Virus record (IMG/VR): IMGVR_UViG_3300023242_000003
Location: 1 to 64,000 of that record
Strand: one strand, 5' to 3'
DNA: 64,000 bases
DNA from: a virus
Every line of letters begins with the position of its first letter. Positions within the stretch are counted from its first letter, which is position 1. The translations under genes and the position numbers were made by a program. Shown here one piece after another: positions 3,893-57,113 of this stretch. Under the pieces are notes generated by a model. The model searched no databases. It worked only from the letters and a program-made list of their open reading frames with translations, and was not told where the DNA came from.

Positions 3893-6847
3893 TTGATAAA
3901 TTTAGACGATATACGAGGGCGTTCAGCCATTTCATTGCTTGAGACATATGAAGGGATAAATCCATACATCAAAAAACTAAAAATAGCTTTTTTGAAAAAT
4001 AATAAATTAGCTTTAACTGAAAACCAATCAAAGTACATTACTGAAAACCATGAAAGAGAACCTCTTTTCATTAATAGGATTGTTGGTATAACTCCTTATC
4101 TAGGTGAAGAACTAAAAAAAATGGATGAGTTATCGTTCACACCAGAAAAAGTTTTAATTGAATTTATTCTTGCTGATACAGATAAAACATTTCATATATA
4201 CGGCAAACTAAAACAAAACCAAAAAGAGTCTAAAATGTATTGGTTACCTAAAACACAGCTAACTGATGACCCATATTTTGAACCTAGTAATATAGAAGTA
4301 GATTTTAACCTATATAACGAAGTTTTATCAGAATATGGAAAGAAACTATATCAACACCAAGAAGAAGGTGTTAAATTCCTTCTTTCCAGAAACGGTTGTA
4401 TTTTAGCTGATGATATGGGGTTGGGGAAAGCTTGGTTATCGAGTACTTACATATACACCCCTAAAAATAAGGTTAAAATAGGTACACTTAAAGTAGGTGA
4501 CAAGGTAATTGGTTCTGATGGAAACCCATGTAATGTTACTGGTGTTTTCCCACAAGGGGTTAAAGATTTATATCGTATTACGTTTAATGATGGTTATAGT
4601 GGTTTAGTTTGTAAAGAACATTTATGGACTGTATCGTCAAATAATTCTGGTAATAATTCAAAAAATAGAGAAAATAGGTACATTACACTAAGTACCGAAC
4701 AAATGCTCAATAAAGAATTGGTTATTGAACAAAAAGGGACGGGTTGGAATGAAAAAAGACCATATAAATTAAAGACATATTATAAACATAGTAATGGTCA
4801 AAATAAGTGGCAAATTCCAATTGTCAAACCAATAGAATTTTATAATAATATTGAATTACCGATTGAACCTTATTTATTAGGACTTGGTTTAGGGGATGGT
4901 TATTTTGATAATAGAAATAATATTAAAATAGAATTACACCAAAATGATTTTGAAGAAATATTTAAAAAACTAAATATTAATGAATACGCTGCAACAAATA
5001 ATAATCTAACAGCCTACATTAAATTAAATCATGAATTAATAGATTTAGGTTTAAACAATAAAAAATCAGATACTAAATTTATCCCTAACATCTATAAATA
5101 TTCATCAATTAATGATAGAATAGCTATACTACAAGGTCTCATGGATACTGATGGTCATTGTATTAAATCTAATGCTGGTGTATTTACTGGTACCGAGTAC
5201 TGTAGTGTATCGGAACAACTAACTGATGATGTAGCTGAAATTGTTCATAGTTTAGGTGGTATTGTTAGAAAATCATCTAAGGTTGGTTCTTACAAAAAAG
5301 AGGATGGAACTAGGGTAATATGTAAACGTGCTTTTAGGTTAAATATCAAGATGCCAGAAGGTATTAACCCATTTAGACTTAAAAGAAAAGCTAATTCTTA
5401 TAACTCGCCAAAAAAATATCCAGTTGGTCGATATATTTCTAATATTGAATTAGAAACAAAAGGTGATGCGGTATGTATTTCTGTAGATACTCCAGATAAG
5501 TTATATGTTGTCGAACATGGAATTGTTACACACAATACAACACAATCGATTGTAGCGGCACTAGAAAGTGGTGCTAAAAAAATATTAGTCGTTTGCCCGT
5601 CATCAACAAAAATTAACTGGGAGCGTGAAATTAATGTTTTTTGTGATGACACAACAATTATCGATGGTAAAAAATGGAGTGATGCTAAATTCACTATAAT
5701 TAATTTTGATATTCTTAAAAATTTCCATACTTTATCTTCTGGTAAAAAACCAAAAGAAGGTGAACCAGAAGAAATTTTAAATAGAGAATTGGTAAACGCT
5801 AATTATGATTTATGTATCATTGATGAGGCTCATTATTTAAAAAATAATGAAAGTATTAGAGGTAAAATAATGGTGGAACTTTGTGCTAAGGAAAAAATAG
5901 AGAAGGTTTGGTTGTTAACTGGTACACCCGTCGCAAATAGACCTATGGATTTCTTTAATCTTTTAAAGATTATTAAATCTCCTATCGCAGATAATTGGAA
6001 ACATTATGCTGTAAGGTATTGTGATGCTAGAAAGTTCTTTAGAACGCTTAAGAATGGTCAAAAAAAACAAATATGGCTTACTGATGGTGCTAGTAATTTA
6101 GAAGAACTAGCTAATAAAACCAAAAATACTATTATTAGACGTTTAAAAACTGAAGTGTTAGATATGCCAGATAAAGTAGTGACACCTATGCACCATATGT
6201 TAGATAAAAAAGGTGTTAAACAATATGAATTACTTTGGGAAGAATACTTACAAAAAAGGAAATTAGAGGGTAAGAAAACAGATAATCTACAAAAAGATTT
6301 GGTTGAACTTATTCTACTTAGACAATTTATTGCGCAAGAAGCTATTCCTTATACTATTGAAATGATAGAAAACGCTATTGAAATGGGTCGTAAAGTGATA
6401 GTATTTACTAGTTTTACTGATGAATTAGAAATGATATCTAATCACTTTGGTAAATTGGCGGTTAAACACAACGGCCTAATGACAACATTACAAAAACAAA
6501 AATCAGTTGATTCGTTTCAAAACAACGACAAGGTAAAAGTTTTTGTTGGTAATATAAAATCTGCTGGTGTTGGTATCACACTTACTGAAGCAACTGTGGT
6601 TATTTTTAACTCATTTGATTGGGTTACTGGTAATAACGAACAAGCTGAAGATAGAGCGTATAGAATTGGACAAAAGAATGATGTTAATGTTTATTATCAA
6701 TTATTTGACGACACTATATCAATAAGGATGTGGGAAACTTTAAAACAAAAACAAGAAATAATTAACATAATATTAGGTGTTGAAAATATAACCAAAGAAA
6801 ATGAAACAGATTTATTAACCCAAAAAATATTGAATGGTGATTTATAA
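3893..6847 (+). CDS. SNF2/HARP-like SF2 helicase containing an intein
   Basis: LADDMGLGK-[intein]-TTQS Walker A, IIDEAH Walker B, LTGTP, SAGVGITL and QAEDRAYRIGQ motif VI. Confidence 0.92.
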   Translation: MINLDDIRGRSAISLLETYEGINPYIKKLKIAFLKNNKLALTENQSKYITENHEREPLFINRIVGITPYLGEELKKMDELSFTPEKVLIEFILADTDKTFHIYGKLKQNQKESKMYWLPKTQLTDDPYFEPSNIEVDFNLYNEVLSEYGKKLYQHQEEGVKFLLSRNGCILADDMGLGKAWLSSTYIYTPKNKVKIGTLKVGDKVIGSDGNPCNVTGVFPQGVKDLYRITFNDGYSGLVCKEHLWTVSSNNSGNNSKNRENRYITLSTEQMLNKELVIEQKGTGWNEKRPYKLKTYYKHSNGQNKWQIPIVKPIEFYNNIELPIEPYLLGLGLGDGYFDNRNNIKIELHQNDFEEIFKKLNINEYAATNNNLTAYIKLNHELIDLGLNNKKSDTKFIPNIYKYSSINDRIAILQGLMDTDGHCIKSNAGVFTGTEYCSVSEQLTDDVAEIVHSLGGIVRKSSKVGSYKKEDGTRVICKRAFRLNIKMPEGINPFRLKRKANSYNSPKKYPVGRYISNIELETKGDAVCISVDTPDKLYVVEHGIVTHNTTQSIVAALESGAKKILVVCPSSTKINWEREINVFCDDTTIIDGKKWSDAKFTIINFDILKNFHTLSSGKKPKEGEPEEILNRELVNANYDLCIIDEAHYLKNNESIRGKIMVELCAKEKIEKVWLLTGTPVANRPMDFFNLLKIIKSPIADNWKHYAVRYCDARKFFRTLKNGQKKQIWLTDGASNLEELANKTKNTIIRRLKTEVLDMPDKVVTPMHHMLDKKGVKQYELLWEEYLQKRKLEGKKTDNLQKDLVELILLRQFIAQEAIPYTIEMIENAIEMGRKVIVFTSFTDELEMISNHFGKLAVKHNGLMTTLQKQKSVDSFQNNDKVKVFVGNIKSAGVGITLTEATVVIFNSFDWVTGNNEQAEDRAYRIGQKNDVNVYYQLFDDTISIRMWETLKQKQEIINIILGVENITKENETDLLTQKILNGDL
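4430..5536 (+). mobile_element. Class 3 intein with LAGLIDADG endonuclease in helicase Walker A
   Basis: Starts with Ala (AWLSS), HLW block B, VCISV block F, ends VTHN/T; LLGLGLGDG and LQGLMDTDG motifs. Confidence 0.88.
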
Positions 6848-6895
6848 TTTTTTTCTTCTAACTTTACTCCTATTCAAATTACCTTCATAATGAAC
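6842..6895 (-). pseudogene. Detached 3' end of the HNH gene (VHYEGNLNRSKVRRKKL*)
   Basis: Joins in frame to ...TTRIING of ORF 8333-8827 across the TGTT direct repeat; its stop overlaps the helicase stop in TTATAA (6842-6847). Confidence 0.8.
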
Positions 6896-6936
6896 AGTTA
6901 CTAATTTCATATAAAAATATATAAATTTAGTTTTTT

Positions 6937-8103
6937 TTAGTTAGAGAAACTGTAAATTCCTCTATTATAAATATTAATACTTGCATTATAATCAGCATCT
7001 ATTTCATATTTACAACTTGTACATTTGAAGTTCTCGCCTTGGCGAGACTTCTTATCTACATGACCGCAACTAGAACATGTTTGTGAGGTATATGCTGGTG
7101 AAACCTTCACCAACATAATACCGTTATCCTCACATATCCTATTTATTTTATCAATGGTCTTGACATAAGACCATCTTTGTATTTTATTTGTAAAATATTT
7201 CTTACCAGTTTTAACTGATACTAAATCTTCTATTATTATATTATTAACATCTTCGATGTTAATTAAATTACATAACCTATTTATTTCATTATCTCTATGA
7301 TTTAAACTTCGTTTAAATCCATTACTACCTTGTTTACATCTACTTATTTTAGAATATATATCACTTAAATCACCATTAATAACTTGATTATCAGATGTAA
7401 CAATTAATTTTTTATACCCCATATCAATTCCAATGGCTTTGCCATTGGTTTTAATATCTATCTCTTTTTCCCAAATAAGGCTAATATAATAATTATTTTT
7501 TACCTTCTTAATTTGTATATTATTTCTTAATTTAAACGTATTATGTTTAAATGATAATGAATGTTTATGGTGATTAAATGGTATATTTATTTGTAGGGCA
7601 CGAGTGCCCTTTTCATTAAAATAAGGTAATTTAAGATTAATAAAGTTATCAAAATGGGAACCATTTTGTATATTAAAAAATTCATTTGTTAGATTAATAC
7701 TAACATTATTTAGATTAGGTTTAGTGAAATATTTAGTTTTTAATATATTATTTAATGATAGGTCAGAGAATTTAGTTTTACAGAATGAAGAATCAGGATG
7801 ATTCTTCATCATATATGTGTATGTTTTTTTATATGATGAATATCTTTTCTTTTTACTTTTATCTAATTGACTTCTTATAATTTCTGATGCTTGTTTATAT
7901 ATTTCTCTTTTATATTTAGAATGTTTTATTACTTCTGTAGGAAGTAATTTAGATGATAAATTAGGTTTAAGGGGTAATACACCCTCTATTATATAGTTTA
8001 TATATATTTCTAAATCATGTTTATAATCAATAAATACTTGGTCAAGGGAAGCAAGCTTCCCTTGATTAGCATTTGATATAATATGTTTAGATGTTCTAAT
8101 CAT
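6937..8103 (-). CDS. tnpB: TnpB RNA-guided endonuclease (IS200/IS605/IS607 superfamily)
   Basis: RuvC-I GIDMG, RuvC-II IIEDL, YTSQTCSSCG...CTSC zinc finger, RuvC-III DADYNAS; catalytic D/E/D intact. Confidence 0.92.
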   Translation of the reverse strand: MIRTSKHIISNANQGKLASLDQVFIDYKHDLEIYINYIIEGVLPLKPNLSSKLLPTEVIKHSKYKREIYKQASEIIRSQLDKSKKKRYSSYKKTYTYMMKNHPDSSFCKTKFSDLSLNNILKTKYFTKPNLNNVSINLTNEFFNIQNGSHFDNFINLKLPYFNEKGTRALQINIPFNHHKHSLSFKHNTFKLRNNIQIKKVKNNYYISLIWEKEIDIKTNGKAIGIDMGYKKLIVTSDNQVINGDLSDIYSKISRCKQGSNGFKRSLNHRDNEINRLCNLINIEDVNNIIIEDLVSVKTGKKYFTNKIQRWSYVKTIDKINRICEDNGIMLVKVSPAYTSQTCSSCGHVDKKSRQGENFKCTSCKYEIDADYNASINIYNRGIYSFSN

Positions 8104-8252
8104 TATTTATTTTCTAATTCTTTTAGAATCAGTTTAGTAATTAATTTAGACATACCAATATTGTTTTCCAAACAATATTGTTGCAATTCAGTTTTAGTAG
8201 AATCTGTGATTCTTATAAAAACTCTATTTGTTTTATTTATTTTTGTTCGCAC
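8103..8252 (-). CDS. Small ribbon-helix-helix protein, 49 aa (not in ORF track)
   Basis: GTG start; (M)RTKINKTNRVFIRITDSTKTELQQYCLENNIGMSKLITKLILKELENK*; stop overlaps tnpB ATG (TAATG). Confidence 0.75.
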   Translation of the reverse strand: MRTKINKTNRVFIRITDSTKTELQQYCLENNIGMSKLITKLILKELENK

Positions 8253-8332
8253 ATTAATAAATATATAGATAAAATGAAAAAGATAAAAAAATATATTTTA
8301 TTTTAAAAATAAGTTTTATCTGAATGATAATA

Positions 8333-8827
8333 TTATATATTTTTATATGTTTTATTAACTACGTTAATAACACCGTTAATAATCCTAGTTGTACCCCACA
8401 TTGGTCTAAGGTTAGATAATGCATTTACAATACTAGGGTGTTCAGTCGTTTCAAAACTACCGACTGGTTTTATGTGGTCAACGTGCCATTCACCATGGTT
8501 TCTCCATGTCATACCCTCAGTAAATAATGCTGTAATATGTTCTTTAAACTCCAAAGCGGAATAACCTAATAAATCTATAGTGTGACCTTCTTTTTTGGTG
8601 TTTAATCTCCATAAAGACATTTTAAGAACACTTCTCCATAAACCAACGTGTTTATTTTTTAACCTATATTCTTGTCTTTTATTTTGGTTTATTTTATTAT
8701 ATTCTTTTTTGTAAATATTTTTACATTCTTTACATTGACAATGATAACCATCTTTACCTAAATTATTAACGTGAAATTCAGCGATTGATTTTTCAAGATT
8801 ACATTTAGTACAAATTTTAGTCTTCAT
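8333..8827 (-). pseudogene. HNH homing endonuclease truncated by the TnpB element
   Basis: N-terminal CxxC...CxxC finger, WHVDHIKP and NLRPMW; last ~11 codons derive from the inserted element; true C-terminus at 6842-6895. Confidence 0.8.
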
Positions 8828-9272
8828 TTACAATTACTGTAAAATCAATATTATATGGTGTTCTATCTTCTAAATAAAATAAAACAGAGCCATAAACCAT
8901 TTTATTATCTTTATTCGTTTTTATTTCTGACACTATAGTTTCAAAACTTAAATTTTCTTTTAATGTTTTTTCTAAAACTGTTTTAAGTGTGTGATTAAAT
9001 TCAAACAGTTCATTTGTTAAAACTTTATTTAAAACCATTTTAGTTAACAATATCTTAATTGATTTTTCTTGTGATAAAAAAATACCATCTGTGATAAAAT
9101 TAATATCATCATTTATAAATTTAATTATTTTATCACTCATTGATAAAGATTCAATTTTACATTTATTTTTAAACTTATTTTTGAGTTCAGAATTTATCCT
9201 AATTTTTATTTCAGTTTCTTTCATTTTATTAAATTTTATCATATTTATTATTTGTGGTAACATTGTACCCAT
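8817..9272 (-). CDS. RHH-domain protein with C-terminal extension (likely start at 9224)
   Basis: MKETEIKIRINSELKNKFKNKCKIESLSMSDKIIKFI is RHH-like; overlaps the HNH start. Confidence 0.7.
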   Translation of the reverse strand: MGTMLPQIINMIKFNKMKETEIKIRINSELKNKFKNKCKIESLSMSDKIIKFINDDINFITDGIFLSQEKSIKILLTKMVLNKVLTNELFEFNHTLKTVLEKTLKENLSFETIVSEIKTNKDNKMVYGSVLFYLEDRTPYNIDFTVIVNED

Positions 9273-9339
9273 ATTAATAAATATACTAATATTTTAAAAA
9301 AGATATAAATATTTACTTTTTATTTAAAATATTTATAAT

Positions 9340-9552
9340 GGGAATAATGAACAAGCAGAAGATAGAGCATTCCGTATTGGTCAAAAAAATGATGTCAATG
9401 TTTACTATCAATTATTTGACGATACTATTTCGAGTAGAATGTGGTCTATGTTAAATAGTAAAAAAGACATCATCAATATAATTATGGGTGATAAAAAATT
9501 AACAGAAGATGAAATAACTGCCTTATTGGTAGATGACTTAATAACAATGTAA
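9340..9552 (+). pseudogene. Orphaned original 3' end of the helicase (70 codons, no start at its 5' end)
   Basis: GNNEQAEDRAFRIGQKNDVNVYYQLFDDTISSRMWSML...; 30/31 aa identical to 6629-6721; stop sits 1 nt before the glutaredoxin ATG. Confidence 0.88.
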
Positions 9553-9847: not shown

Positions 9848-9892
9848 ATGTCAATAACTATAGACGAAAAAGAAAAACTATTCCTTAGATAA
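9848..9892 (+). pseudogene. Orphaned original 5' stub of the neck-protein gene
   Basis: MSITIDEKEKLF(LR*) parallels MAISNDERDKLFR at 10908; both are preceded by TGATATTTATAnTAAAA. Confidence 0.75.
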
Positions 9893-10658
9893 CATGATTA
9901 AGATATTTAAGGATGTTTTTTCTATATGGAATAATTATTAATTTAATATTATTATCGTTACAATAATTTTCTTTTATTTTATCTCTACTTTTTAATTTAT
10001 TAAAAACCGTTTCACCACCAAACCATTTTATTGGTTTATAATGTTGTTCCCCATGAAATTCGATACATGTGTTATAATCTGGTAAATAAAAATCGAATGG
10101 TAATTTATTAATATTTTTACAATCATTAAATTTATATTGTGGTGAAAAGTTAATTTTTTTAGATTCTAATATATTTCTAATTTCTTTTTCACCTTTTGAT
10201 TCACGACAATTCGGACAACCTTTACCTCTTAAATGTTCATACGGTAATTGTTCGAAATTTCCATGTATAGGACAAATTATATTAATTTTAGTCTTTGAAT
10301 TAATATAATTAACTAATTTATAAATATAAAAATTATAATGTTTTATTATAAATTTATTTATTAATTCATCGTTAGTGATTAATTTAATTTTTAATTTATT
10401 AGTTCTTGCTTTAATACTTTTTATACTTCTATTTAATACTTTAACACAACCATGTATGCCAATTTTACTATAATTCTCAATTAAGAAAATATCATCATTC
10501 TTAACCCATTTTTCTTCCAGAATCAACCCTAATTTAAATGCTTTCATATAAATAGATTTAGTTGTTTTACCTAATTTTTTTACACAATAATCACTACAAT
10601 TAACAGAATAATTATTTTTTAAAAAATCTATTTCATTAGTACTCCACCTATTTGCCAT
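9885..10658 (-). CDS. Free-standing endonuclease (Vsr/DUF559-like PD-(D/E)xK with Zn-finger and helical repeats)
   Basis: Two W...FL..NYS repeats, ICPIHG...HLRGKGCPNC, SKGEKEI and PFDFYLP...IEFHGEQHY. Confidence 0.8.
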   Translation of the reverse strand: MANRWSTNEIDFLKNNYSVNCSDYCVKKLGKTTKSIYMKAFKLGLILEEKWVKNDDIFLIENYSKIGIHGCVKVLNRSIKSIKARTNKLKIKLITNDELINKFIIKHYNFYIYKLVNYINSKTKINIICPIHGNFEQLPYEHLRGKGCPNCRESKGEKEIRNILESKKINFSPQYKFNDCKNINKLPFDFYLPDYNTCIEFHGEQHYKPIKWFGGETVFNKLKSRDKIKENYCNDNNIKLIIIPYRKNILKYLNHVI

Positions 10659-33757: not shown

Positions 33758-33800
33758 AATAATTGATAATATGAGCTATATTTATTAATAAAACAAATTT

Positions 33801-35777
33801 ATGTCAAAAAAAGTTTCAACACCGTTAAAAACAACTGCTGCTAAACCAGCTAGAACCACTAGAACTAAAAAAACAGAAACTAACGAAATTGTTTCTTCGG
33901 CACACATAAAACAAGACTTACTTAGCCAGATAAAAATAGATTTAAAACATAAGAATGAGGTTCAGAAAAAACTTACCCAATCAATCAAAAATGGTGATGT
34001 AACTATTTGTACTGGCCCAGCTGGTACTGGTAAAGCCCAACCACTTGATTCATTAATTTTAACCCCAAAAGGGTATGTTAAAATGGGTGATATTAATGTA
34101 GGTGATGAGGTTATTGGGGTTAATGGTACCCCTATATTAGTAGATGGTGTTTACCCACAAGGTGAAAAAGAAATTTATTTAATTTCTTTTTCAGATGGAA
34201 CACAAACTGAGTGTTGTGGTGAACATTTATGGTTTACTCAAACCTATGAAGAGAGGAATAAACGTAAAAGAGTAACTGATGATAATGGGAAACGTATTTA
34301 TATCGGTAAAAATCCAAATAAAGGTTCAGTTAGAAATACGATTGATATTATGAATTCGTTAGTTGTTGGTAAAAAATCACAAAAAGTTAATCACTCAATT
34401 CCAATTGTTAAACAAATTGAATTTAAAACCAAAGAAGTTACTATTGACCCTTATTTATTAGGTTGTTTATTAGGTGATGGTGGTTTTACCACACCAGCAA
34501 TATCCTTAACAACAAATGATGTACAAATTGTTGAAACGATTTCTAATATTTTACCAAAAAATCATATTCTAAAAGAAAAATATGGTCAAAATTATATTAT
34601 AAAGTCGGTTGGGGTTAAAAAAAATGATATAACAGAGTATTTACGTGAAGTTAATTTATTTGGATTAACTTCTTCATACAAATTCATTCCAGAAGAATAT
34701 CTAATTAACGATACTAACACTAGATTAGAAATTTTAAGGGGGTTATTAGACACTGATGGTTCCGTGGATACAAAAACTGGTACACCGTTATTCTATTCTA
34801 CTTCTGAGAAGTTAATAGATGGAGTAACCTTTATAGTACAATCACTTGGTGGTATAGTTAAAAAAACACAAAAAATAGGTAAATATAGAAAACTAAATGG
34901 TGAGGTAAAAGAATGTAAGGTTATTTATTCGCTACATATTAACTTACCACTAGGGGTAATACCATTTAAATTAGATAGGAAAATAAATCTAATGAAACAA
35001 AGAGTTAAATATTTTCCTATTCGGTATATTAAAAATGTTGAACTAATAGGTAAGAAAAAGGCTCAATGTATTTCTGTAAATGACGAAAACCATTTATATT
35101 TAACAAATGATTGTATTGTAACGCACAACACCTTATTAAGTGTTGCTGAGGCGTTAATCTTATTAAAAACTCACCCAGAAATTTATTATGAAATCAAACT
35201 AGTTAAATCAATCATTCAACTTAAAGATGAGGATTTAGGTACTTTACCTGGTGATGAAAGAGATAAATTAAAATTTATTATGATGTCTTTCTTTGATGCT
35301 TTCTATAAACTAATAGGTGAAGAACTAACTAATAAATTGTTAGATGCTGGTTACATAAAAATGGAGGTTTTTGGTTCTATTCGTGGTAGGTCACTATCAA
35401 ACTGTATCGTGTTATTTGATGAATTTCAAAACGTTACCGATAACAACGGAAAAACACTTCTTACTCGTTTCTCTGAAAACACCAAAGTAATAGCTCTAGG
35501 TGATAGTAATCAAGTAGATTTAAAAAAACCAGAATCTAGTTGTTTAGGTGAGTTAGTCAGAATGGCTAAATTACACCCAGAAGAAGGTGTTAATGTGGTT
35601 GAATTTACTGAAAATGAAGTTGTTAGACATAGGTTAACAAAATATTTTATAAACATTTTTGAACATAAAGACTACAAAAAAATTACGGTACCAAAACCAT
35701 CATCAAGTAGAATAATTAAAAAATCTGGTTTTTTTAGTTTTTTAAACTTTTTAAAAAAAAAAATAGATAATTTATAA
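33801..35777 (+). CDS. phoH: PhoH-like ATPase containing an intein
   Basis: GPAGTGK-[intein]-TLLS, LGTLPG, IRGRSL, DEFQN, LGD..Q.D and VVRH. Confidence 0.9.
   Translation: MSKKVSTPLKTTAAKPARTTRTKKTETNEIVSSAHIKQDLLSQIKIDLKHKNEVQKKLTQSIKNGDVTICTGPAGTGKAQPLDSLILTPKGYVKMGDINVGDEVIGVNGTPILVDGVYPQGEKEIYLISFSDGTQTECCGEHLWFTQTYEERNKRKRVTDDNGKRIYIGKNPNKGSVRNTIDIMNSLVVGKKSQKVNHSIPIVKQIEFKTKEVTIDPYLLGCLLGDGGFTTPAISLTTNDVQIVETISNILPKNHILKEKYGQNYIIKSVGVKKNDITEYLREVNLFGLTSSYKFIPEEYLINDTNTRLEILRGLLDTDGSVDTKTGTPLFYSTSEKLIDGVTFIVQSLGGIVKKTQKIGKYRKLNGEVKECKVIYSLHINLPLGVIPFKLDRKINLMKQRVKYFPIRYIKNVELIGKKKAQCISVNDENHLYLTNDCIVTHNTLLSVAEALILLKTHPEIYYEIKLVKSIIQLKDEDLGTLPGDERDKLKFIMMSFFDAFYKLIGEELTNKLLDAGYIKMEVFGSIRGRSLSNCIVLFDEFQNVTDNNGKTLLTRFSENTKVIALGDSNQVDLKKPESSCLGELVRMAKLHPEEGVNVVEFTENEVVRHRLTKYFINIFEHKDYKKITVPKPSSSRIIKKSGFFSFLNFLKKKIDNL
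34035..35129 (+). mobile_element. Class 3 intein with LAGLIDADG endonuclease in PhoH Walker A
   Basis: AQPLDS start, HLW, QCISV, VTHN/T; LLGCLLGDG and LRGLLDTDG. Confidence 0.9.
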
Positions 35778-46954: not shown

Positions 46955-48781
46955 TTATCTTAATTCTCTTACGTCAAATGTAGGTACACCGTCTACTCTT
47001 ACGTGACCGTAAAAACGGTTGTTCACAACTTTCTTAGCGTAACGTGTCATGATACCTTTAACTGGCGCAAAGTTGAACGGGTTGTACATCGTTGGCGTTA
47101 ATTGTAATGGTACGTATGGAGCGTAGATATAACCAGTATCAAGTAAAGATTTACCTTTGTGACCAATGATTACTGAGTAAGATGGCGCATAAGGGTCTCT
47201 GTATACTTGGAAACGTCCAGATAATGAACCGATTCTTTCGATACCCATGTTATATTGGTCTTGCTCTGGGTTAGCATCACTTACGTGGAAGTATTCTAAA
47301 TCATCAAAGATAGCAGAGATTTCAGAAGAAACTACGATAAAGTTAGCACCACCTCTAAGAGTAGATTTGTGGATTTGAGCAGAAACTTGGGTTAATCTAG
47401 TGATTAAAGTTTGGTTCCAGTCTTTTTGTGTGTATGGGCTAGCAGCTGAAGAAGCACTTCTCCATCCGTTATAGTCCCAACGTAATTGCCATGCAGCAGC
47501 TTTACGGATATCTCTAAGGATTTCACGGTCAATCTCAGCAGCAACTTGTTCTGATAACATAGCTGTTAATTCAGCTTCAGCATCAATGTTGTGGAATGCA
47601 CTAACGTCTTGAGCAAGCTCTGGAGACCAAGTAGCACGTAATTTTCTTTCTTCAACAACAACAACAACTTCGTCTAATCTGAAAGATACTTCTCCCATTT
47701 CAGTTTCAAGTTCTAATGTTGCATATCTTGCCCATGCAGATGTAAAAGTAAATGCAGATACAGTAGAAGCAGAAGCACCAACGTAACCATCATAAGTTGT
47801 AGTTCCAGCAGCAGCAGCAGTTCCAGCAGCAGTTGTTCCTACAGGGTGACGTAAGTCTAATTCTAAGAAACATACACCAGTTCCATCAGTTAATGCGTTA
47901 GAACCAGATACGATACCTTTACCATATTGTTGGGTAACAAGACGGAAAGGAATTTCTTTACCAGCAGCAATAATTGTGTTTGCGTCTCTATCTAAGATAG
48001 CGTTAGTAGACAATACGTGTAATGAAGCTAAGAAAGATTCAGTATCCATTTGGTTACCATCAGCACCTGTCATTACTTCTCTACCGTTAGTTGTTAAACC
48101 AGCTGAGAAACCAGAAATACCAACAATGATACCTCTTAATGAACCATCAGTTGCAGTTGGTAAAGTAGCACTAGGAGCAGCAATAGCGAAAGCACCGTCA
48201 ACACCCATAGTGTAAACTTGATTAGCACCAGCAACAATTGTTAAAGTACCTTTTGAGTTATCAAATAAACCATCGTTATAGAATGCATCGTATAAGTTTT
48301 TTCCGATGAATTGAGTAACTGCACAGTTAGTTTGGTCGATACAAGATGGAACACCACCGTTCATTGCTGTATGAGCAGAGAAAGTAGTACCATAAGCACC
48401 ACCAGTAGCATAATTATCACCAGCTACACCAGCAGCATCTACACGAGATGAAGTTTGTGGTACGAAGTAAAATAATTTACCGATTGGCATGTTCATAGCT
48501 TGTACAGACACGATGTCGTTAGCTAATAATTTAGAGAATACTCTACGTACAATTGGGAATACAACTGTTTCGAAAGAACCAGAAGATTGTGTAGTAGTAC
48601 CTTCACTTAATAATGTAGATGCTTGGTTTTCATATAACTGAGCAATGTTTTCTTTAACGTGTCCTTTTAGACCGTCTAGGAATCCTAATGAATCCCATTT
48701 AGATTGTGTTTCTTTACGGATAGCCTTCATGTGGTTTAATCCGATGTTACCAACCTGTCCAGATGCTAATAAATGTGACAT
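46955..48781 (-). CDS. Major capsid protein (T4 gp23-like)
   Basis: IVSVQAM..P.G..F, RKL.A.WS.ELAQD..A.H.IDAEAEL, YAPYVPL and GIMTRY. Confidence 0.95.
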   Translation of the reverse strand: MSHLLASGQVGNIGLNHMKAIRKETQSKWDSLGFLDGLKGHVKENIAQLYENQASTLLSEGTTTQSSGSFETVVFPIVRRVFSKLLANDIVSVQAMNMPIGKLFYFVPQTSSRVDAAGVAGDNYATGGAYGTTFSAHTAMNGGVPSCIDQTNCAVTQFIGKNLYDAFYNDGLFDNSKGTLTIVAGANQVYTMGVDGAFAIAAPSATLPTATDGSLRGIIVGISGFSAGLTTNGREVMTGADGNQMDTESFLASLHVLSTNAILDRDANTIIAAGKEIPFRLVTQQYGKGIVSGSNALTDGTGVCFLELDLRHPVGTTAAGTAAAAGTTTYDGYVGASASTVSAFTFTSAWARYATLELETEMGEVSFRLDEVVVVVEERKLRATWSPELAQDVSAFHNIDAEAELTAMLSEQVAAEIDREILRDIRKAAAWQLRWDYNGWRSASSAASPYTQKDWNQTLITRLTQVSAQIHKSTLRGGANFIVVSSEISAIFDDLEYFHVSDANPEQDQYNMGIERIGSLSGRFQVYRDPYAPSYSVIIGHKGKSLLDTGYIYAPYVPLQLTPTMYNPFNFAPVKGIMTRYAKKVVNNRFYGHVRVDGVPTFDVRELR

Positions 48782-49984: not shown

Positions 49985-50106
49985 TTTTTTTTTTATCTTT
50001 TTTAGTTTTATTTTATAGATAAAGAATGAGATAGAACTCATTTGTTAATAAATATACGTTATTTCATTAAAAATCATTTTTTCAATAAAAATGATTAAAA
50101 AAAATC

Positions 50107-51984
50107 TTATTCAGATAAAAATTTATCTAAATCGTTTAATAGGTTTTCTTTTATTAATGGTTTCTTGGTTTCTTTGTTCTCAACATAAGGTTTCATTTCT
50201 TCTCTACTTCTACCAATCCATGCGTCTGGGGTAGAAGGGGCTGTAACTACATCCCAACAAATAATTTCAAAATCTTCTTGAACTATTTGTTCACCATTTT
50301 CCCCTTCAACTAACGAACCAACACCTCTAGAGGAAACACCAATCTTAATTCTATTTCTTAATAAGTTAGCCACTTCATCTCCTTTTGTTGACACTATACC
50401 GTAGTTAATAAAACCAGGTGTCATCAAAATTTCCATTTTACCCATAAGTGTGTGACCTTCCCACCATGTCTCAACAATATTATGTGAAATTCTATCACCA
50501 GCAATAATAGATGAATTTCCATTCCAACAAGTTTTACCATTATCTCTAACATAGAACACGTGATTAGGTACATCAACACAATAAACATTATCGTTATACT
50601 CAACTAATTCCGTTTTTAACGTTCTTTTATCTAAATAAATACCTTTTGTTTTTGAAATATGTAATCTATTCATTGGGTTTGAATGACCTTTTTTAATTAC
50701 TCTATTTTCAAACATTCTATCATAATTTCGTTCCTCAATTCTTAAATTAGATGAGTACCCAATTTTTAATATAATTTCTTGTAAATCATTTATTAATTTT
50801 TTAGAAGTACTAAAAACTTCTCGATATTTACCATCTCTAACTCGTCCATCCCCCAAAACAAACCAATCTAAAAAATCAGATAATAAGTTATCACTCAATC
50901 CTTTTAATTCAGTTGGTATAAATTTATCTTGTGATTTACCAAATTGTTTTAAATAATTATGTAATCTAGCATCATTTATTTTAAAATCTACTTTACCATC
51001 TGAATAGATTATTTCTTTAAAACTTAACGGTAATAATTGTAATAATTCCCTTATCAGTATTTTACCATTTTCTTTTTTCTGTGTTATTTTACAAACATAA
51101 CCACTATCAGATGATTCAAAACCATATTCTGTTTCACCATTTTCAGTTATTCTAGATATTCTTTTTTTTGTTTTGTTAACCACAACACAACCATCGGCTA
51201 AATAAACACCCATAAATTTGACCCATAAATCCATTGGTATCTCAATATCACTCATCAATTCTAATTTTTTACTGTATGAGGTATTAAAAGCTATTTCATT
51301 TTCATCTAGACCTTTAATAGTAAAAAATTTTTTATCGTCACCAACCCACTTACCAAGTTTAGGTATATACATTTTATCAATACCTTTAATCTTGTGTTCG
51401 TGTATGTCTGTGGCGGTAATAAAACTCCCATTACCGTTTCTATCTATAACCCAAAATTTATGGTTAGGTGTGACCATTAAGTCAATTGACCTACCTTTTA
51501 TTGAAATCATATTACCGTTGTAGTGCTTAACTATTTTTTTTGTTATAGTTTTTAGCTCTATTTGGTTTGAAATTGGGTTTAAAGTATATACTTCTTCAGT
51601 TGAAGAAATATCTTTAATATATTTCCACCCATCTTTAGTTAAAATTTCAGCACTTTGTCGGTGACATTCTGGGTGGTCTAATTCACCAACTGCTCTTCTT
51701 TCTCTAATTGCTTCTTGATATAGTCTGTCTTGGCTTTTAAGTATCGCTTCTCGATAGATTCTACCGTTACGATTAAGAATACCAAATTTTTGTAAAACCA
51801 CATAAACGATAAGTGGTTCCATTATAGCTAGTTTGCCACCTGTATCTAATTTTTTTATCTCATTGATAAAAAGTTGGTTTCTCGGTTCTTCTGGGGAGAT
51901 ATATCCAGCATCGTGCTCGATTAGCCCACCCCAACCGCTCTCACCACGTTTAAGTATTCTAAAGTCTTTATAATTTATGTCCAT
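50107..51984 (-). CDS. Prohead protease (gp21-like) containing an intein
   Basis: NRNGRIY, GELDHPE-[intein]-SS, GVSSRGVGS and WDVVTAPSTPDA. Confidence 0.92.
   Translation of the reverse strand: MDINYKDFRILKRGESGWGGLIEHDAGYISPEEPRNQLFINEIKKLDTGGKLAIMEPLIVYVVLQKFGILNRNGRIYREAILKSQDRLYQEAIRERRAVGELDHPECHRQSAEILTKDGWKYIKDISSTEEVYTLNPISNQIELKTITKKIVKHYNGNMISIKGRSIDLMVTPNHKFWVIDRNGNGSFITATDIHEHKIKGIDKMYIPKLGKWVGDDKKFFTIKGLDENEIAFNTSYSKKLELMSDIEIPMDLWVKFMGVYLADGCVVVNKTKKRISRITENGETEYGFESSDSGYVCKITQKKENGKILIRELLQLLPLSFKEIIYSDGKVDFKINDARLHNYLKQFGKSQDKFIPTELKGLSDNLLSDFLDWFVLGDGRVRDGKYREVFSTSKKLINDLQEIILKIGYSSNLRIEERNYDRMFENRVIKKGHSNPMNRLHISKTKGIYLDKRTLKTELVEYNDNVYCVDVPNHVFYVRDNGKTCWNGNSSIIAGDRISHNIVETWWEGHTLMGKMEILMTPGFINYGIVSTKGDEVANLLRNRIKIGVSSRGVGSLVEGENGEQIVQEDFEIICWDVVTAPSTPDAWIGRSREEMKPYVENKETKKPLIKENLLNDLDKFLSE
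50515..51666 (-). mobile_element. Intein with LAGLIDADG endonuclease in prohead protease
   Basis: CHRQSAEILT...TPNH...VYCVDVP...WNGN/S; FMGVYLADG and VLGDG. Confidence 0.88.
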
Positions 51985-53981: not shown

Positions 53982-56900
53982 TTATTCGTCCAACATTTTA
54001 TCAATATCATTAATCATACTATTAACTGTTTGATTAACCTTTACTGTTTTGTCGTATATTTTAACTTTTTCAGTTGATTTATTTTTTTCGCTAGGTTTAA
54101 CTGATTCAACTAAAGCATCAACCCATTTGTTTTGATATTTTTTAGTTCTTTCATTAAGTTTTTTAGATAAAATAATTTTTTCTTCTTTTAATAATTTATC
54201 AACCCTTTTTAAAGATTCAGCAACGGTTTGTGGTTCGGTATCCGTAGTTTCTTCAGCTCCAGCTAAAGCTTCTGCTCCAGCTTCTAATTCAGCTCCAGCT
54301 TCTTCTTCTTCGCCACCAGCTTCTTCAGCTTCACCAAAATCTAAATCTTCACCACCAGCTCCACCACCACCGAATGAACCACCTAGACCACCACTGCCAC
54401 CACCTACGGCATCAGCGTCAGCTTCACCAGCACCACCACCACCAGCCATTGCCGCTTTAAAATCACCATAGATTCTATCAACTGTGTCAAACATTCCCGT
54501 GTGTTTGATAACATTGGCCGTATTTTGTAGTTCAGCAGACGCTGCTTTTTCCATACGTTGTTCAAGTAAATCTGATTTTATTTCATCATCAGACCAACCC
54601 ATAATATCTCTGTGTGCACGAGTCCATGACATAGTACCAAAACCATTACCAATATCAGATACAGCATCTTTAAGTAATGTAACTTTTTGTTGCATGTGTT
54701 CGATTTTAAGCATTTCGGCTTGAGTAGAAGGATTATTCAATGTAAGGGTAAAGTTGTCTAAATCTTCTTCAAACCCTAGAATATATAAGTGAATAATGGC
54801 AATCTTGTTAAGTTCTTGTAACATTGATTGTTGTATACGGTTAATTGTTCTAGAAAAACGAATATCTTGTATTGCTAAGTTTTTACCATCACCAGTTGCT
54901 TCCTCAAACCCTAAAAAAGGTTTTGGAACACGTAATGCAGTAAATAAATTTCTTTGCAAGTACTCAATATCTGCAATTTGGTCCAAATTAGATGCCCCAG
55001 GCAAAGTATCAATAGGGTTAGGTGCGTCTTCAGTTCTTACTGGAATAAAGAAATCTTGGTCGTTAGCTAATTGATTATAACGTAAATCTATTTGCCCTGT
55101 TTGTGGGTCAGTAATAGGCATACGTTTAAATCTATCAGCAATTGTATTTACATACGCCTCAACATCAGCATCGTCAATATTACCAACATAAATCTTATAT
55201 ACACGTCTTTCTGGCGCTCTTGTCACACGATAAACGAGCATTGAGTCTTCTGAAAGGATAAGTTGTTTCCATATACGTCTAGCCTTCTCTAACACAGAAT
55301 TATGTACAACGATACCATTTGCATAGAAATTATGATTATCATTTTCAACATATATATCGTATGTTTCGTGTTCACCACTTTCCTCAATTGATTTAATCGG
55401 TTCTAAAATAAAATCGTTAGTTAACCTATTACCAATTAAATCATATTTATTTTTTTGTCTTACACTACTATCATAAAAATAAAAATAAAAACTTTCTTGT
55501 TGTGTTTTAAATCTCCTATCACCAATACCAGAACCCTTACGAAGTCTACTACATATTTTACCAGATTTCAAACCCAAAGATTGAACTAAAATTTTAATAT
55601 CGTTAATAAGTTCTTCATTTGACAGTTCGATAGAATATCTTAGACAATCTGATTTATCTATAAATAACGAACCATCAGCGTCAATAATACCATTCAAGAA
55701 AGCTTGTCTTACCTCCATAGAAGAAGTATAAACCCATTTAGGTATTCTTTTACTATAAACATCACCTATGAAACCCATATCTCTAAGAATTATTGATAAA
55801 GTTTTAGAATTACAGATACCTTGTGCCATACCATTATCACCACCAGAAAATTTAATATCTCTACCAGTAATTTGATTCATATATTTAATATATTTTTTGT
55901 TTATTGATTTATGTTCTGATAAGGCTATAAAAACTGAATCATTGTGAACCCAACCATCACCTATTAAATAACCGAAAAATTCTGCAAATTTAGTGTCAAC
56001 AAAATCGGGTATCAACCCAACATTATTCCAAAACCCATTTTTGTTTGATTCTGGTTTATTTTTAATTATTGGAACGTTAACATTATTTAGATTAATTTTA
56101 TCAACAACCAATAAATCACCTACTTTAAAATCTAGCGTATTTTTATAATCGAATTTATTTAATTCGGTATTATAATACATTATCTTATGTTCTTTAGATG
56201 CGTCTATAAAATTATGTTTGGTACTAAGTTTATAAGTTTTTTTATTACCAGAATTAACAGTATCCAATACTTTTGACAATACTTTAACTTGATTTATCTC
56301 ATCAAATGAATAAACCATATCACCAATAACAATATCTTTTATCTCCTTATACCCCTCACTTGTCTCAACTCTAGAATTATATTTTAAACACGTACCATAA
56401 GGTAAACGTCTATCATCACCTAATAAACGGAAATGTGCAATTTGCCAAGAATTAAATTCAACATCATTACTTCTCCAGTAAAACTTAACTTTATCATTAG
56501 TTTCTTGACCATCAGTCATTTCTCTACCAGATATCATGTCAAATAACCCAGCTTCTCTACGTTCCATTTCATAATTAGGCATTTGTTTAGCACCTAATAT
56601 ACCATGTGAATCGTTTATATTCAAGAATACGAAGTTATCACCGTATTTACACGTATTTCTAGTCCACATTGGAAGCGAAGTGTGTAAATCTAAACGATTA
56701 AAAAATAAGTCTTCAAGTATTCCTTTAACTCGTTTACTGTCAGAATAAATGTTAAGAACTCTACCGTGTTCATTAACCGTAGTTGATTCTTCCATCATCA
56801 CATCTAAGGCAGCCGCAATTGTTGGGTAAAACTCCATAGCTTCAAAATCAGAATATGAACCAATACGTGTTGTTTCATAATTTATTGATTGTTGAAACAA

Positions 56901-57113
56901 ACCACTTTCTACTTTTTTCCAAAGACCACCTAGGTATTTGTTTTGCTGGGCTTGTAATTTAGCTTTTTCAAATTCAGCTTTGTTATTCGTTTTAAGTAAC
57001 TCTCCGTTACCCAAGTTATATCGTTGAGTTGGTTGTTTTTGTGTTAGCGTGTTAGAATCTGGACTAAGTACTTGACCTAATCTTTGAAATAACGTTAAAT
57101 TTTTATTTGCCAT
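53982..57113 (-). CDS. Portal protein (gp20-like) containing an intein
   Basis: IAHFRL...PYGT-[intein]-SVLEKARRIWKQL..ED.MLVYR..RAPERRV, IDTLPGA and ALRVPK. Confidence 0.93.
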   Translation of the reverse strand: MANKNLTLFQRLGQVLSPDSNTLTQKQPTQRYNLGNGELLKTNNKAEFEKAKLQAQQNKYLGGLWKKVESGLFQQSINYETTRIGSYSDFEAMEFYPTIAAALDVMMEESTTVNEHGRVLNIYSDSKRVKGILEDLFFNRLDLHTSLPMWTRNTCKYGDNFVFLNINDSHGILGAKQMPNYEMERREAGLFDMISGREMTDGQETNDKVKFYWRSNDVEFNSWQIAHFRLLGDDRRLPYGTCLKYNSRVETSEGYKEIKDIVIGDMVYSFDEINQVKVLSKVLDTVNSGNKKTYKLSTKHNFIDASKEHKIMYYNTELNKFDYKNTLDFKVGDLLVVDKINLNNVNVPIIKNKPESNKNGFWNNVGLIPDFVDTKFAEFFGYLIGDGWVHNDSVFIALSEHKSINKKYIKYMNQITGRDIKFSGGDNGMAQGICNSKTLSIILRDMGFIGDVYSKRIPKWVYTSSMEVRQAFLNGIIDADGSLFIDKSDCLRYSIELSNEELINDIKILVQSLGLKSGKICSRLRKGSGIGDRRFKTQQESFYFYFYDSSVRQKNKYDLIGNRLTNDFILEPIKSIEESGEHETYDIYVENDNHNFYANGIVVHNSVLEKARRIWKQLILSEDSMLVYRVTRAPERRVYKIYVGNIDDADVEAYVNTIADRFKRMPITDPQTGQIDLRYNQLANDQDFFIPVRTEDAPNPIDTLPGASNLDQIADIEYLQRNLFTALRVPKPFLGFEEATGDGKNLAIQDIRFSRTINRIQQSMLQELNKIAIIHLYILGFEEDLDNFTLTLNNPSTQAEMLKIEHMQQKVTLLKDAVSDIGNGFGTMSWTRAHRDIMGWSDDEIKSDLLEQRMEKAASAELQNTANVIKHTGMFDTVDRIYGDFKAAMAGGGGAGEADADAVGGGSGGLGGSFGGGGAGGEDLDFGEAEEAGGEEEEAGAELEAGAEALAGAEETTDTEPQTVAESLKRVDKLLKEEKIILSKKLNERTKKYQNKWVDALVESVKPSEKNKSTEKVKIYDKTVKVNQTVNSMINDIDKMLDE
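55299..56390 (-). mobile_element. Intein with LAGLIDADG endonuclease in portal
   Basis: CLKYNSRV...TYDIYVE...VVHN/S; FFGYLIGDG and LNGIIDADG. Confidence 0.9.

What the first reader, a model, noticed from the sequence alone, without database searches (positions are those of the whole stretch)
6842..8372. TnpB element nested in the HNH gene: a parasite of a parasite, with exact junctions
Removing 6897-8372 (element plus one TGTT copy) restores ...NLRPMWGTTRIING-V-HYEGNLNRSKVRRKKL* in frame. That restores the NL helix expected to carry the final HNH metal ligand, so the insertion should inactivate the HNH. TnpB catalytic residues are intact. By the established TnpB mechanism the guide is the DNA flanking the element's right end, here (TGTT)CATTATGAAGGTAATTTG, which is the HNH gene. 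TnpB would therefore cut phages carrying the uninterrupted HNH cassette and home into them.
Basis: partly seen in the sequence, partly recalled or inferred. Interest (0 to 1): 0.8.

Follow-up and report, generated by a model that had tools for sequence, protein, structure and literature searches.

The report
RNA-guided transposon inside phage endonuclease gene
A small mobile element carrying an RNA-guided nuclease (TnpB) has inserted precisely into the end of a mobile endonuclease gene of a T4-like phage, and its predicted guide matches the uninterrupted version of that gene, making it a natural candidate for RNA-guided homing between co-infecting phages.

Summary
Removing 6897-8372 restores a 169-aa endonuclease whose length and C-terminal tail match intact homologues from related phages (80-88% identical).

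The insert is a 1.47-kb IS607-family element. Copies 94-96% identical sit at four other sites in other phage contigs, and one carries the IS607 serine recombinase TnpA. The window copy carries a 49-aa Arc-like ribbon-helix-helix (RHH) gene in place of tnpA.

TnpB is intact: the RuvC D/E/D residues and the zinc finger are present, and dN/dS between copies is 0.15-0.30. Its 3' end overlaps a structured RNA with two covarying hairpins.

Comparing 26 elements changes the end anatomy. The repeated core is TRT rather than TGTT, the left flank reads RG-TRT (the predicted TAM; GGTGT here), and the right end reads AAC-TRT.

The predicted guide is the displaced tail of the endonuclease gene. Intact alleles in relatives keep GGTGT and differ from the guide at one base.

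The endonuclease is itself part of a facultative cassette, flanked by a duplicated helicase 3' end.

Cleavage, the TAM and homing are inferred, not shown. This is a new variant of a known kind. The scan's first readers had already noted the element ends and the duplicated helicase end.

The parts
6842..6896 (-). Displaced 3' end of the endonuclease gene (last 17 codons plus stop at 6842-6844). The stop overlaps the stop of the convergent SNF2 gene.
   Evidence: Translation. The same tail is present in intact homologues.
6875..6893 (-). Predicted target-matching (guide) segment of the omegaRNA, the roughly 16-20 nt directly after the right-end core. The exact first base is uncertain by 1 nt.
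   Evidence: The right-end boundary is fixed by independent copies. Guide position follows the TnpB/IS607 precedent (PMC10711439). The segment is unique in the 99.6-kb record.
6894..6896 (-). TGT core copy at the right-end junction, preceded by the invariant AAC of the right end.
   Evidence: AAC-TRT is invariant in 30 aligned right ends. R matches the left-flank R.
6897..6936 (-). Non-coding right end with subterminal repeats. The inverted-repeat arm is 6908-6929.
   Evidence: Inverted repeat I4, 22 nt, 91% complementary to 8328-8349. The region is conserved in copies.
6894..7113 (-). Predicted omegaRNA scaffold overlapping the tnpB 3' end, with covarying hairpins at 7095-7113 and 6942-6964.
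   Evidence: RNAalifold and pair counts give helices 97.8% and 99.5% paired, with compensatory changes; 0 of 500 shuffles reach the observed values. Folding z-score is -6.5. The 5' end is not mapped.
6937..8103 (-). tnpB, 388 aa, an RNA-guided nuclease with intact RuvC (D227, E292, D371) and zinc finger (C343, C346, C361, C364).
   Evidence: Pfam PF07282 at 5.5e-20. NCBIfam guided_TnpB at 113 bits, cut-off 100. Invariant columns. PDB alignments. dN/dS 0.15-0.30.
8103..8252 (-). 49-aa Arc-like RHH gene in the position of tnpA. Its stop overlaps the tnpB start by 1 nt.
   Evidence: Pfam RepB-RCR_reg at 2.4e-4. PHROG Arc-like repressor at 2e-4. The gene recurs upstream of TnpBs that are 54-96% identical.
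8253..8369 (-). Left end. It holds a gene-start motif at 8254-8265, the inverted-repeat arm at 8328-8349, and variable first bases at 8366-8369.
8370..8372 (-). TGT core copy at the left junction. With 8373-8374 (GG) it forms the predicted TAM, GGTGT.
   Evidence: Homology breakpoints of four copies. RG-TRT is seen at left flanks.
8373..8827 (-). 5' part (codons 1-152) of the His-Me/HNH-type endonuclease gene. The interrupted ORF continues to 8333 with an 11-residue tail encoded by the element.
   Evidence: PHROG 'endonuclease VII' at 5e-23.
8817..9272 (-). 151-aa gene with an Arc-like N-terminus, co-linear with the endonuclease. It is the second gene of the endonuclease cassette.
   Evidence: PHROG hits. 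It is syntenic in relatives and absent together with the endonuclease in L022.
9340..9543 (+). Orphaned copy of the last ~68 codons of the SNF2 gene, which marks the far edge of the endonuclease cassette.
   Evidence: tblastn gives 66% identity to the in-use SNF2 tail. The orphan resembles the tail of the cassette-free L022 allele.

Best explanation
This is a non-autonomous IS607-family insertion sequence made of a left end, an Arc-like RHH gene, tnpB, the omegaRNA and a right end. It entered the phage's free-standing His-Me/HNH endonuclease gene by serine-recombinase (TnpA) recombination at a GG-TGT-T site, with TnpA supplied in trans by an autonomous sister copy. The insertion cut off the conserved last 16 residues of the endonuclease.

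The element is transcribed in the same direction as the endonuclease gene. The 3' end of the tnpB transcript folds into the omegaRNA scaffold and runs into the flanking endonuclease tail, which becomes the guide.

TnpB-omegaRNA should therefore cut DNA that has RG-TRT (here GGTGT) next to that tail. That is the uninterrupted endonuclease allele, either the donor site after excision or a co-infecting phage. It should spare its own right-end junction, where AAC precedes the core. Recombinational repair from the occupied allele would then copy the element in.

The RHH protein most likely represses the left-end promoter.

Shown: the anatomy, family membership, exact junctions, conservation, RNA covariation and the existence of target alleles. 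Inferred: cleavage, the TAM, the extent of the guide, homing and RHH function.
For: Exact restoration of a 169-aa protein matching homologues.

Element copies at five independent sites share the same ends. Excision in silico restores long ORFs at other sites too.

The sister copy L083/L176 carries a TnpA that passes the NCBIfam IS607 transposase equivalog (152 bits, cut-off 110).

TnpB passes guided_TnpB. The catalytic D/E/D residues and zinc finger are invariant. dN/dS is 0.15-0.30, including between copies that lack TnpA.

Two hairpins covary, and synonymous sites are frozen in the tnpB 3' end. The folding z-score is -6.5.

The right end is AAC-TRT in 30 of 30 sequences. The left flank is RG-TRT with the same R in all 26 loci. 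That includes 4 loci fixed by homology breakpoints and 6 with only one candidate site.

Intact alleles in relatives carry GGTGT plus a target with one mismatch.

Precedents: IS607 TnpB with a core-containing TAM and a scaffold that absorbs the fixed flank (PMC10711439; bioRxiv 10.1101/2023.11.20.567912); Arc as a repressor of IS605 promoters (bioRxiv 10.64898/2026.09.24.754181).
Against: There is no direct evidence of omegaRNA expression, cleavage or homing.

No TnpA is present in the 99.6-kb record, although that record is only about 28% complete.

None of 17 related loci with this endonuclease carries the insert, so any drive is weak, recent or blocked.

The known intact alleles differ from the guide at the first or second TAM-proximal base, and some have A instead of G before the core.

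The RNA matches no Rfam family, including the IS607-associated one.

T4-like phages often modify their DNA, which could hinder TnpB. This comes from general knowledge and was not tested.
Confidence: 0.6

Rival explanations
1. This is an ordinary transposition event with no inter-phage homing. TnpA from another copy dropped the element into one of many TRT sites that happened to lie in the endonuclease gene. TnpB serves only to restore the element after excision, or does nothing useful in a lytic phage.
For: Sister copies sit at unrelated sites, both intergenic and in various genes, as expected for low-specificity transposition. 0 of 17 related endonuclease loci are occupied. The target motif is short.
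Against: TnpB stays under purifying selection in copies without TnpA, and the RHH-TnpB form persists across lineages 54-96% identical. Both suggest a role for TnpB that does not depend on TnpA in cis.
Confidence: 0.25
2. The RHH-TnpB-RNA unit is a domesticated module that the phage uses for its own benefit. It could act as a weapon against competitor phages carrying the intact endonuclease cassette, or as an RNA-guided regulator, rather than as a selfish element.
For: In this clade tnpA has been replaced recurrently by a small DNA-binding protein. The clade has no relative above 45% identity in 185,579 species genomes but many in viral and metagenome contigs. The left end carries a motif that also precedes phage genes.
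Against: The nuclease residues are intact, unlike the nuclease-dead TnpB-derived regulators. Both transposon ends are kept, and copies occupy different sites in closely related phages, which fits mobile DNA rather than a fixed host gene.
Confidence: 0.1
3. This is an inactive relic: the element and the endonuclease are both dead and simply decaying.
For: The endonuclease is truncated. No transposase is found in the record. One sister copy (L084) has lost its left end.
Against: Both ORFs and both ends are intact, dN/dS is well below 1 and the RNA hairpins are conserved.
Confidence: 0.05

Closest known systems
IS607-family insertion sequences with TnpB (ISXfa1; Clostridium botulinum IStron)
   Same: A serine-recombinase TnpA is present in the autonomous sister copy. 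tnpA is translationally coupled upstream of tnpB. The omegaRNA overlaps the tnpB 3' end and runs into the flank. The same short core sits at both junctions, and the target motif extends upstream of the core.
   Different: The core is TRT with an RG prefix, not GG with TGGG or AGGAG-type TAMs (PMC13565253; 10.1101/2023.11.20.567912). There are subterminal inverted repeats. The element is 23% G+C. The clade is found in phage and metagenome contigs, not in representative bacterial genomes. In many members tnpA is replaced by an RHH gene. There is no match to the IS607_TnpB NCBIfam model or to the Rfam RNA family linked to IS607.
Arc-containing IS605-family elements (bioRxiv 10.64898/2026.09.24.754181)
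   Same: A micro-protein of the Arc/RHH type is encoded inside a TnpB transposon next to its promoter.
   Different: In those elements Arc accompanies a Y1 TnpA in IS200/IS605 elements, often divergently from tnpB. Here it occupies the tnpA slot of an IS607-type element and is co-directional and coupled with tnpB. Repressor activity was not tested here.
Free-standing homing endonucleases of T4-like phages (Seg, Mob) and intronless homing
   Same: The endonuclease gene sits between conserved phage genes, is absent from a related phage, and is flanked by a replaced and orphaned end of the neighbouring gene. That is the footprint expected of cassette invasion.
   Different: This family is a zinc-ribbon plus His-Me/EndoVII-like protein with no Pfam HNH hit. 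Its cleavage site and activity are unknown. In this window it is itself interrupted.
'Non-restorative transposon homing' / TnpB as a gene drive (concept in PMC13565253; Meers et al., PMC10055086)
   Same: An RNA-guided nuclease whose guide matches the empty site, which could convert an unoccupied allele in a co-resident genome.
   Different: The concept was shown for IS605 elements in bacteria and plasmids. Here it is only predicted, for a lytic phage and with another selfish gene as the target.

Membership tests
TnpB (RNA-guided nuclease, OMEGA) | Sequence membership in the TnpB family models | tested here: met
   NCBIfam NF040570 guided_TnpB at 113.4 bits, cut-off 100. Pfam PF07282 at 71.7 bits, cut-off 26.3.
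TnpB (RNA-guided nuclease, OMEGA) | RuvC D-E-D triad and CxxC..CxxC zinc finger | tested here: met
   D227, E292, D371 and C343/C346/C361/C364 are invariant in 24 homologues and align to solved Cas12f/TnpB chains.
TnpB (RNA-guided nuclease, OMEGA) | Structured omegaRNA overlapping the gene's 3' end and reaching the right end | tested here: met
   Two covarying hairpins, 0 of 500 shuffles. Folding z-score -6.5. The ends of the RNA are not mapped.
TnpB (RNA-guided nuclease, OMEGA) | TAM- and guide-dependent DNA cleavage | not testable with these tools
   Needs a TAM library and interference assay.
IS607 family | Serine-recombinase TnpA with an N-terminal HTH upstream of tnpB | tested here: met
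   Met for the element family: sister copy L083/L176 scores 152.4 bits on NF033518 (cut-off 110) and also hits Pfam Resolvase. Not met for the window copy itself, which has the RHH gene instead and is therefore non-autonomous.
IS607 family | Same short core at both junctions and in the empty target, with no true target duplication | tested here: met
   TRT lies at both junctions and once in intact alleles. R is concordant in 26 of 26 elements. The core differs from the usual GG.
IS607 family | Excision as a circle and integration by TnpA | not testable with these tools
HNH / His-Me finger endonuclease | Signature motif (H-x-D-H strand, conserved N, N-L, distal N-x-x-K) | tested here: met
   H115, D117, H118, N135, N139 and L140 are invariant. 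N160 and K163 are nearly invariant in 32 homologues.
HNH / His-Me finger endonuclease | Match to curated family models | tested here: inconclusive
   PHROG 1035 'endonuclease VII' at 5e-23. No Pfam HNH hit above threshold; only 2 of 32 members reach E=0.03.
HNH / His-Me finger endonuclease | Beta-beta-alpha-metal fold | tested here: inconclusive
   AF2 model at pLDDT 91. The Hpy99I zinc module matches at Z=5.1 for residues 1-41. CAD (Z=3.9) and PacI (Z=3.4) match the C-terminal domain only weakly.
Arc/RHH repressor | Ribbon-helix-helix sequence profile | tested here: inconclusive
   Pfam RepB-RCR_reg at 21.4 bits, cut-off 21. PHROG Arc-like at about 2e-4. NCBIfam RelB antitoxin is below its cut-off. 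The protein is short and DNA binding was not tested.

The most novel reading that the evidence does not exclude
A phage-resident IS607 lineage has repeatedly swapped its serine recombinase for an Arc-like repressor. That leaves TnpB-omegaRNA as the only mobility engine, so these elements would spread mainly by RNA-guided homing between co-infecting T4-like phages. In this window the RNA-guided homing nuclease preys on a protein-guided homing endonuclease cassette and disables it, a three-layer hierarchy of selfish DNA.
Probability: 0.3. Interest if true: 0.8.

Novelty: new variant of a known kind. Interest (0 to 1): 0.6.

Why it matters
TnpB elements are the ancestors of Cas12, and their natural role as RNA-guided homing nucleases has been shown only in bacteria and plasmids. 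This locus offers a clean natural test case in a lytic phage. The occupied allele, closely related empty alleles, an autonomous sister copy and a comparative TAM prediction (RG-TRT) are all in hand.

It also documents an AT-rich IS607 clade with a non-GG core. That could yield compact nucleases with a T-rich TAM.

It shows that Arc-type microproteins can replace the transposase, not only accompany it.

Finally, it illustrates how selfish elements stack inside phage genomes: inteins, endonuclease cassettes that replace gene ends, and a transposon inside one of those cassettes.

Tried and rejected
I used the search for related loci instead.
I therefore could not look for empty-site or circle-junction reads.
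- Megablast of 6000-9500 against GenBank phages gave no match.
- An Rfam scan of 6700-8500 at E<=1 gave nothing.
- Foldseek against PDB found no hit at E<=0.001 for the endonuclease model. VIA-align gave only weak nuclease matches.
- BLASTP of the element's RHH against the cassette's 151-aa RHH-like protein gave no alignment, so capture from the cassette is unsupported.
- A search for TnpA in the phage record found nothing, but the record is incomplete.
- A third hairpin, at A2 columns 96-111, is not conserved (57% paired) and was dropped.
- My first reading of a 4-bp TGTT duplication was rejected, because the fourth base does not covary.
- My first placement of the L104 left end was revised to the RG-TGT site 83 nt upstream of tnpA, the distance seen in five other TnpA-bearing copies.
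- A giant-virus/Fanzor origin was considered because of the record size and GVMAG hits. It was rejected because the window encodes T4-type capsid, portal and prohead protease and the TnpB has the canonical D-hydrophobic-G and E signatures.
- Flank homology to this window was found for only 12 of 112 related loci. That is too sparse to prove that all relatives sit in T4-like phages.
Full report
**1. Observation**

On the - strand, a 164-aa ORF (8333..8827) is followed by a 49-aa ORF (8103..8252) and a 388-aa ORF (6937..8103).

- The 164-aa protein has about 400 homologues. The closest (80-88% identical) are all 169 aa long and match only its first ~153 residues.
- Their last 16 residues, a YEGNLN..RRKKL tail, are encoded in the window at 6842-6895 on the - strand.
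- Removing 6897-8372 therefore restores a 169-aa protein of the family's length and tail.
- DNA of 17 intact alleles from related phage contigs shows the uninterrupted site: GG, then TGT or TAT, then T and the tail codons.

**2. What the host genome is**

The window encodes a T4-type major capsid protein, portal and prohead protease, a family-B polymerase and PhoH. Several of these carry inteins.

The record is a 99.6-kb IMG/VR fragment estimated at 28% complete. It is a large, 30% G+C, distant T4-like phage. The nearest cultured capsids are about 38-42% identical. It is not a giant virus.

**3. What the insert is**

*TnpB.* The 388-aa protein passes NCBIfam guided_TnpB and Pfam PF07282.
- D227, E292, D371 and the four zinc-finger cysteines are invariant among 24 homologues.
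- They align to solved Cas12f/TnpB chains.

*Other copies.* Copies 94-96% identical in nucleotides occur in other viral and metagenome contigs at four further sites (L083/L176, L085/L178, L177, L084). Homology to the window begins and ends at the same two positions.

*Family.* One copy (L083/L176) has a 191-aa gene upstream of tnpB that passes the IS607 transposase equivalog and Pfam Resolvase. The family is therefore IS607 (serine recombinase), not IS200/IS605.

*The window copy.* The window copy, L085, L177 and L084 instead carry a 49-aa Arc-like RHH gene in exactly the tnpA slot. It has the same upstream sequence and a 1-nt stop/start overlap with tnpB. No TnpA was found in the phage record, so this copy is non-autonomous. 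One contig holds both a TnpA copy and an RHH copy, so mobilisation in trans is plausible.

*How common the RHH form is.* RHH-TnpB units recur beside TnpBs that are 54-68% identical to this one (L103, L183, L187, L192, L199, L201, L105). They are interleaved with TnpA-TnpB units. One locus keeps only the HTH part of TnpA. A recent preprint shows that Arc proteins of IS605 elements repress the element's promoter (10.64898/2026.09.24.754181). I take that as the likeliest role here, untested.

*Selection.* dN/dS between copies is 0.15-0.30, including between copies that lack TnpA.

**4. Ends, core and predicted TAM**

- Thirty aligned right ends finish with an invariant AAC followed by TRT. The next base varies.
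- At the left side, the four near-identical copies fix the breakpoint: G, then TRT, then the element.
- Across 26 elements there is always an RG-TRT site at the expected distance upstream of the first gene, with the same R as at the right end. In six loci it is the only GTRT site within 260 nt.
- The base after the core does not covary. The repeated unit is therefore TRT, and the window's TGTT is TGT plus a coincidental T.

This is the IS607 pattern of a shared crossover core at both ends and in the target (PMC10711439; 10.1101/2023.11.20.567912). The core here is not the usual GG (PMC13565253).

In silico excision at these boundaries restores long ORFs at other sites too.

The ends also carry a 22-nt subterminal inverted repeat, and this repeat changes in step between lineages.

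Because the empty site reads RG-TRT and the right-end junction reads AAC-TRT, a TAM of about RGTRT would let TnpB tell the empty site from its own junction. This is a comparative prediction only.

**5. The guide RNA**

The last ~220 nt up to the right end fold far better than shuffles (z = -6.5). Two hairpins (window 7095-7113 and 6942-6964) are 98-99% paired across 29 distinct sequences, with compensatory changes. None of 500 shuffles and none of the slid controls reach the observed values. Synonymous positions in the first hairpin are frozen.

No Rfam family matches.

By the TnpB/IS607 precedent the guide is the flank after the core, window 6875-6893 (-), which is the displaced endonuclease tail. 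That sequence occurs once in the record.

Intact alleles L003-L005 carry GGTGT and differ from it at one TAM-proximal base. Others differ at 2-3 bases, or have A before the core.

**6. The interrupted gene and 'parasite of a parasite'**

*What the protein is.* It has an N-terminal four-cysteine module and an H-x-D-H ... N ... N-L ... N-x-x-K pattern.
- PHROGs calls it endonuclease VII (5e-23).
- Pfam HNH is not reached.
- An AF2 model (pLDDT 91) matches the Hpy99I zinc module (Z=5.1). It matches CAD and PacI only weakly.
- I file it as a His-Me/HNH-type nuclease with moderate confidence.

*What the insertion removes.* The lost tail contains invariant G157 and L159 and nearly invariant Y155, N158, N160 and K163. 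Inactivation is therefore likely. The claim that the tail holds the last metal ligand is unproven.

*Why it counts as a mobile cassette.*
- The endonuclease and its 151-aa RHH-like neighbour lie between the in-use SNF2 3' end and an orphaned copy of the last ~68 SNF2 codons (9340-9543, 66% identical).
- The orphan resembles the SNF2 tail of a related phage (L022) that lacks the cassette and has the glutaredoxin gene directly after SNF2.

This is the footprint of a facultative cassette that replaces a gene end, which supports the 'parasite' label.

**7. Distribution**

No representative genome of 185,579 prokaryote species has a TnpB above 45% identity to this one. More than 100 proteins at 55% identity or higher come from viral and metagenome contigs. 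Cultured-phage relatives reach only 41-43%. A phage-resident clade is suggested but not proven.

**8. Verdict**

The nested insertion, its family and its anatomy are solid. RNA-guided cleavage of the intact allele and homing between phages are a well-founded inference from known mechanism, with some counter-indications: 0 of 17 related loci are occupied, and the known alleles mismatch the guide near the TAM. This is a new variant of a known kind.

Noticed in passing
window 3893-6847 (+), residues ~183-560: The SNF2 helicase is split in its GxGK(T) motif by an intein with a LAGLIDADG domain. The intein appears to begin with Ala and is followed by Thr.
   Followed up: partly
window 33801-35777, 50107-51984, 53982-57113, 57162-61622, and probably 46955-48781: PhoH, prohead protease, portal and a 1486-aa protein (two copies) all contain intein/LAGLIDADG insertions. 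The capsid gene matches relatives in two pieces, so the genome is unusually loaded with inteins.
   Followed up: partly
window 8254-8265, 9274-9285, 50045-50056 (-) and 33777-33788 (+): An exact 12-nt motif (TATATTTATTAA) lies 1-24 nt upstream of four start codons, including the element's RHH gene and the cassette's 151-aa gene. It may be a phage promoter or start signal that the transposon also uses. The count alone is not significant.
   Followed up: partly
window 8038-8069 (tnpB codons ~12-22), and the same position in L178, L184, L186, L190, L196, L203: A strong hairpin early in the tnpB ORF is kept in most lineages although its sequence differs. Six G+C-rich hairpins in tnpB were flagged as terminator-like, against 0.3 expected. 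Their function is unknown.
   Followed up: partly
L106:2792-3004: One relative keeps only the 70-aa HTH part of TnpA upstream of tnpB. This is a second route to a unit made of a small DNA-binding protein plus TnpB.
   Followed up: no
L083:2150-2175, L084 and L103 downstream of the right end: A motif resembling TAGTACYTTTGTA recurs in intergenic DNA next to several element copies in related phage contigs. It may be a phage regulatory signal.
   Followed up: no
L103/L184 about 50 nt downstream of the right end: A second right-end-like GCAAC-TGT motif follows the first. It may be a remnant of an earlier insertion at the same place.
   Followed up: no
L084:2441-3001: This copy has lost the left-end repeats and its RHH ORF is fused in frame to an RlpA-like gene. 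Its right end resembles that of another lineage, so it is probably a recombinant, immobile copy.
   Followed up: partly
window 9885-10658 (-): A 257-aa gene beside the glutaredoxin gene has homologues that are variably present or duplicated in related phages.
   Followed up: no
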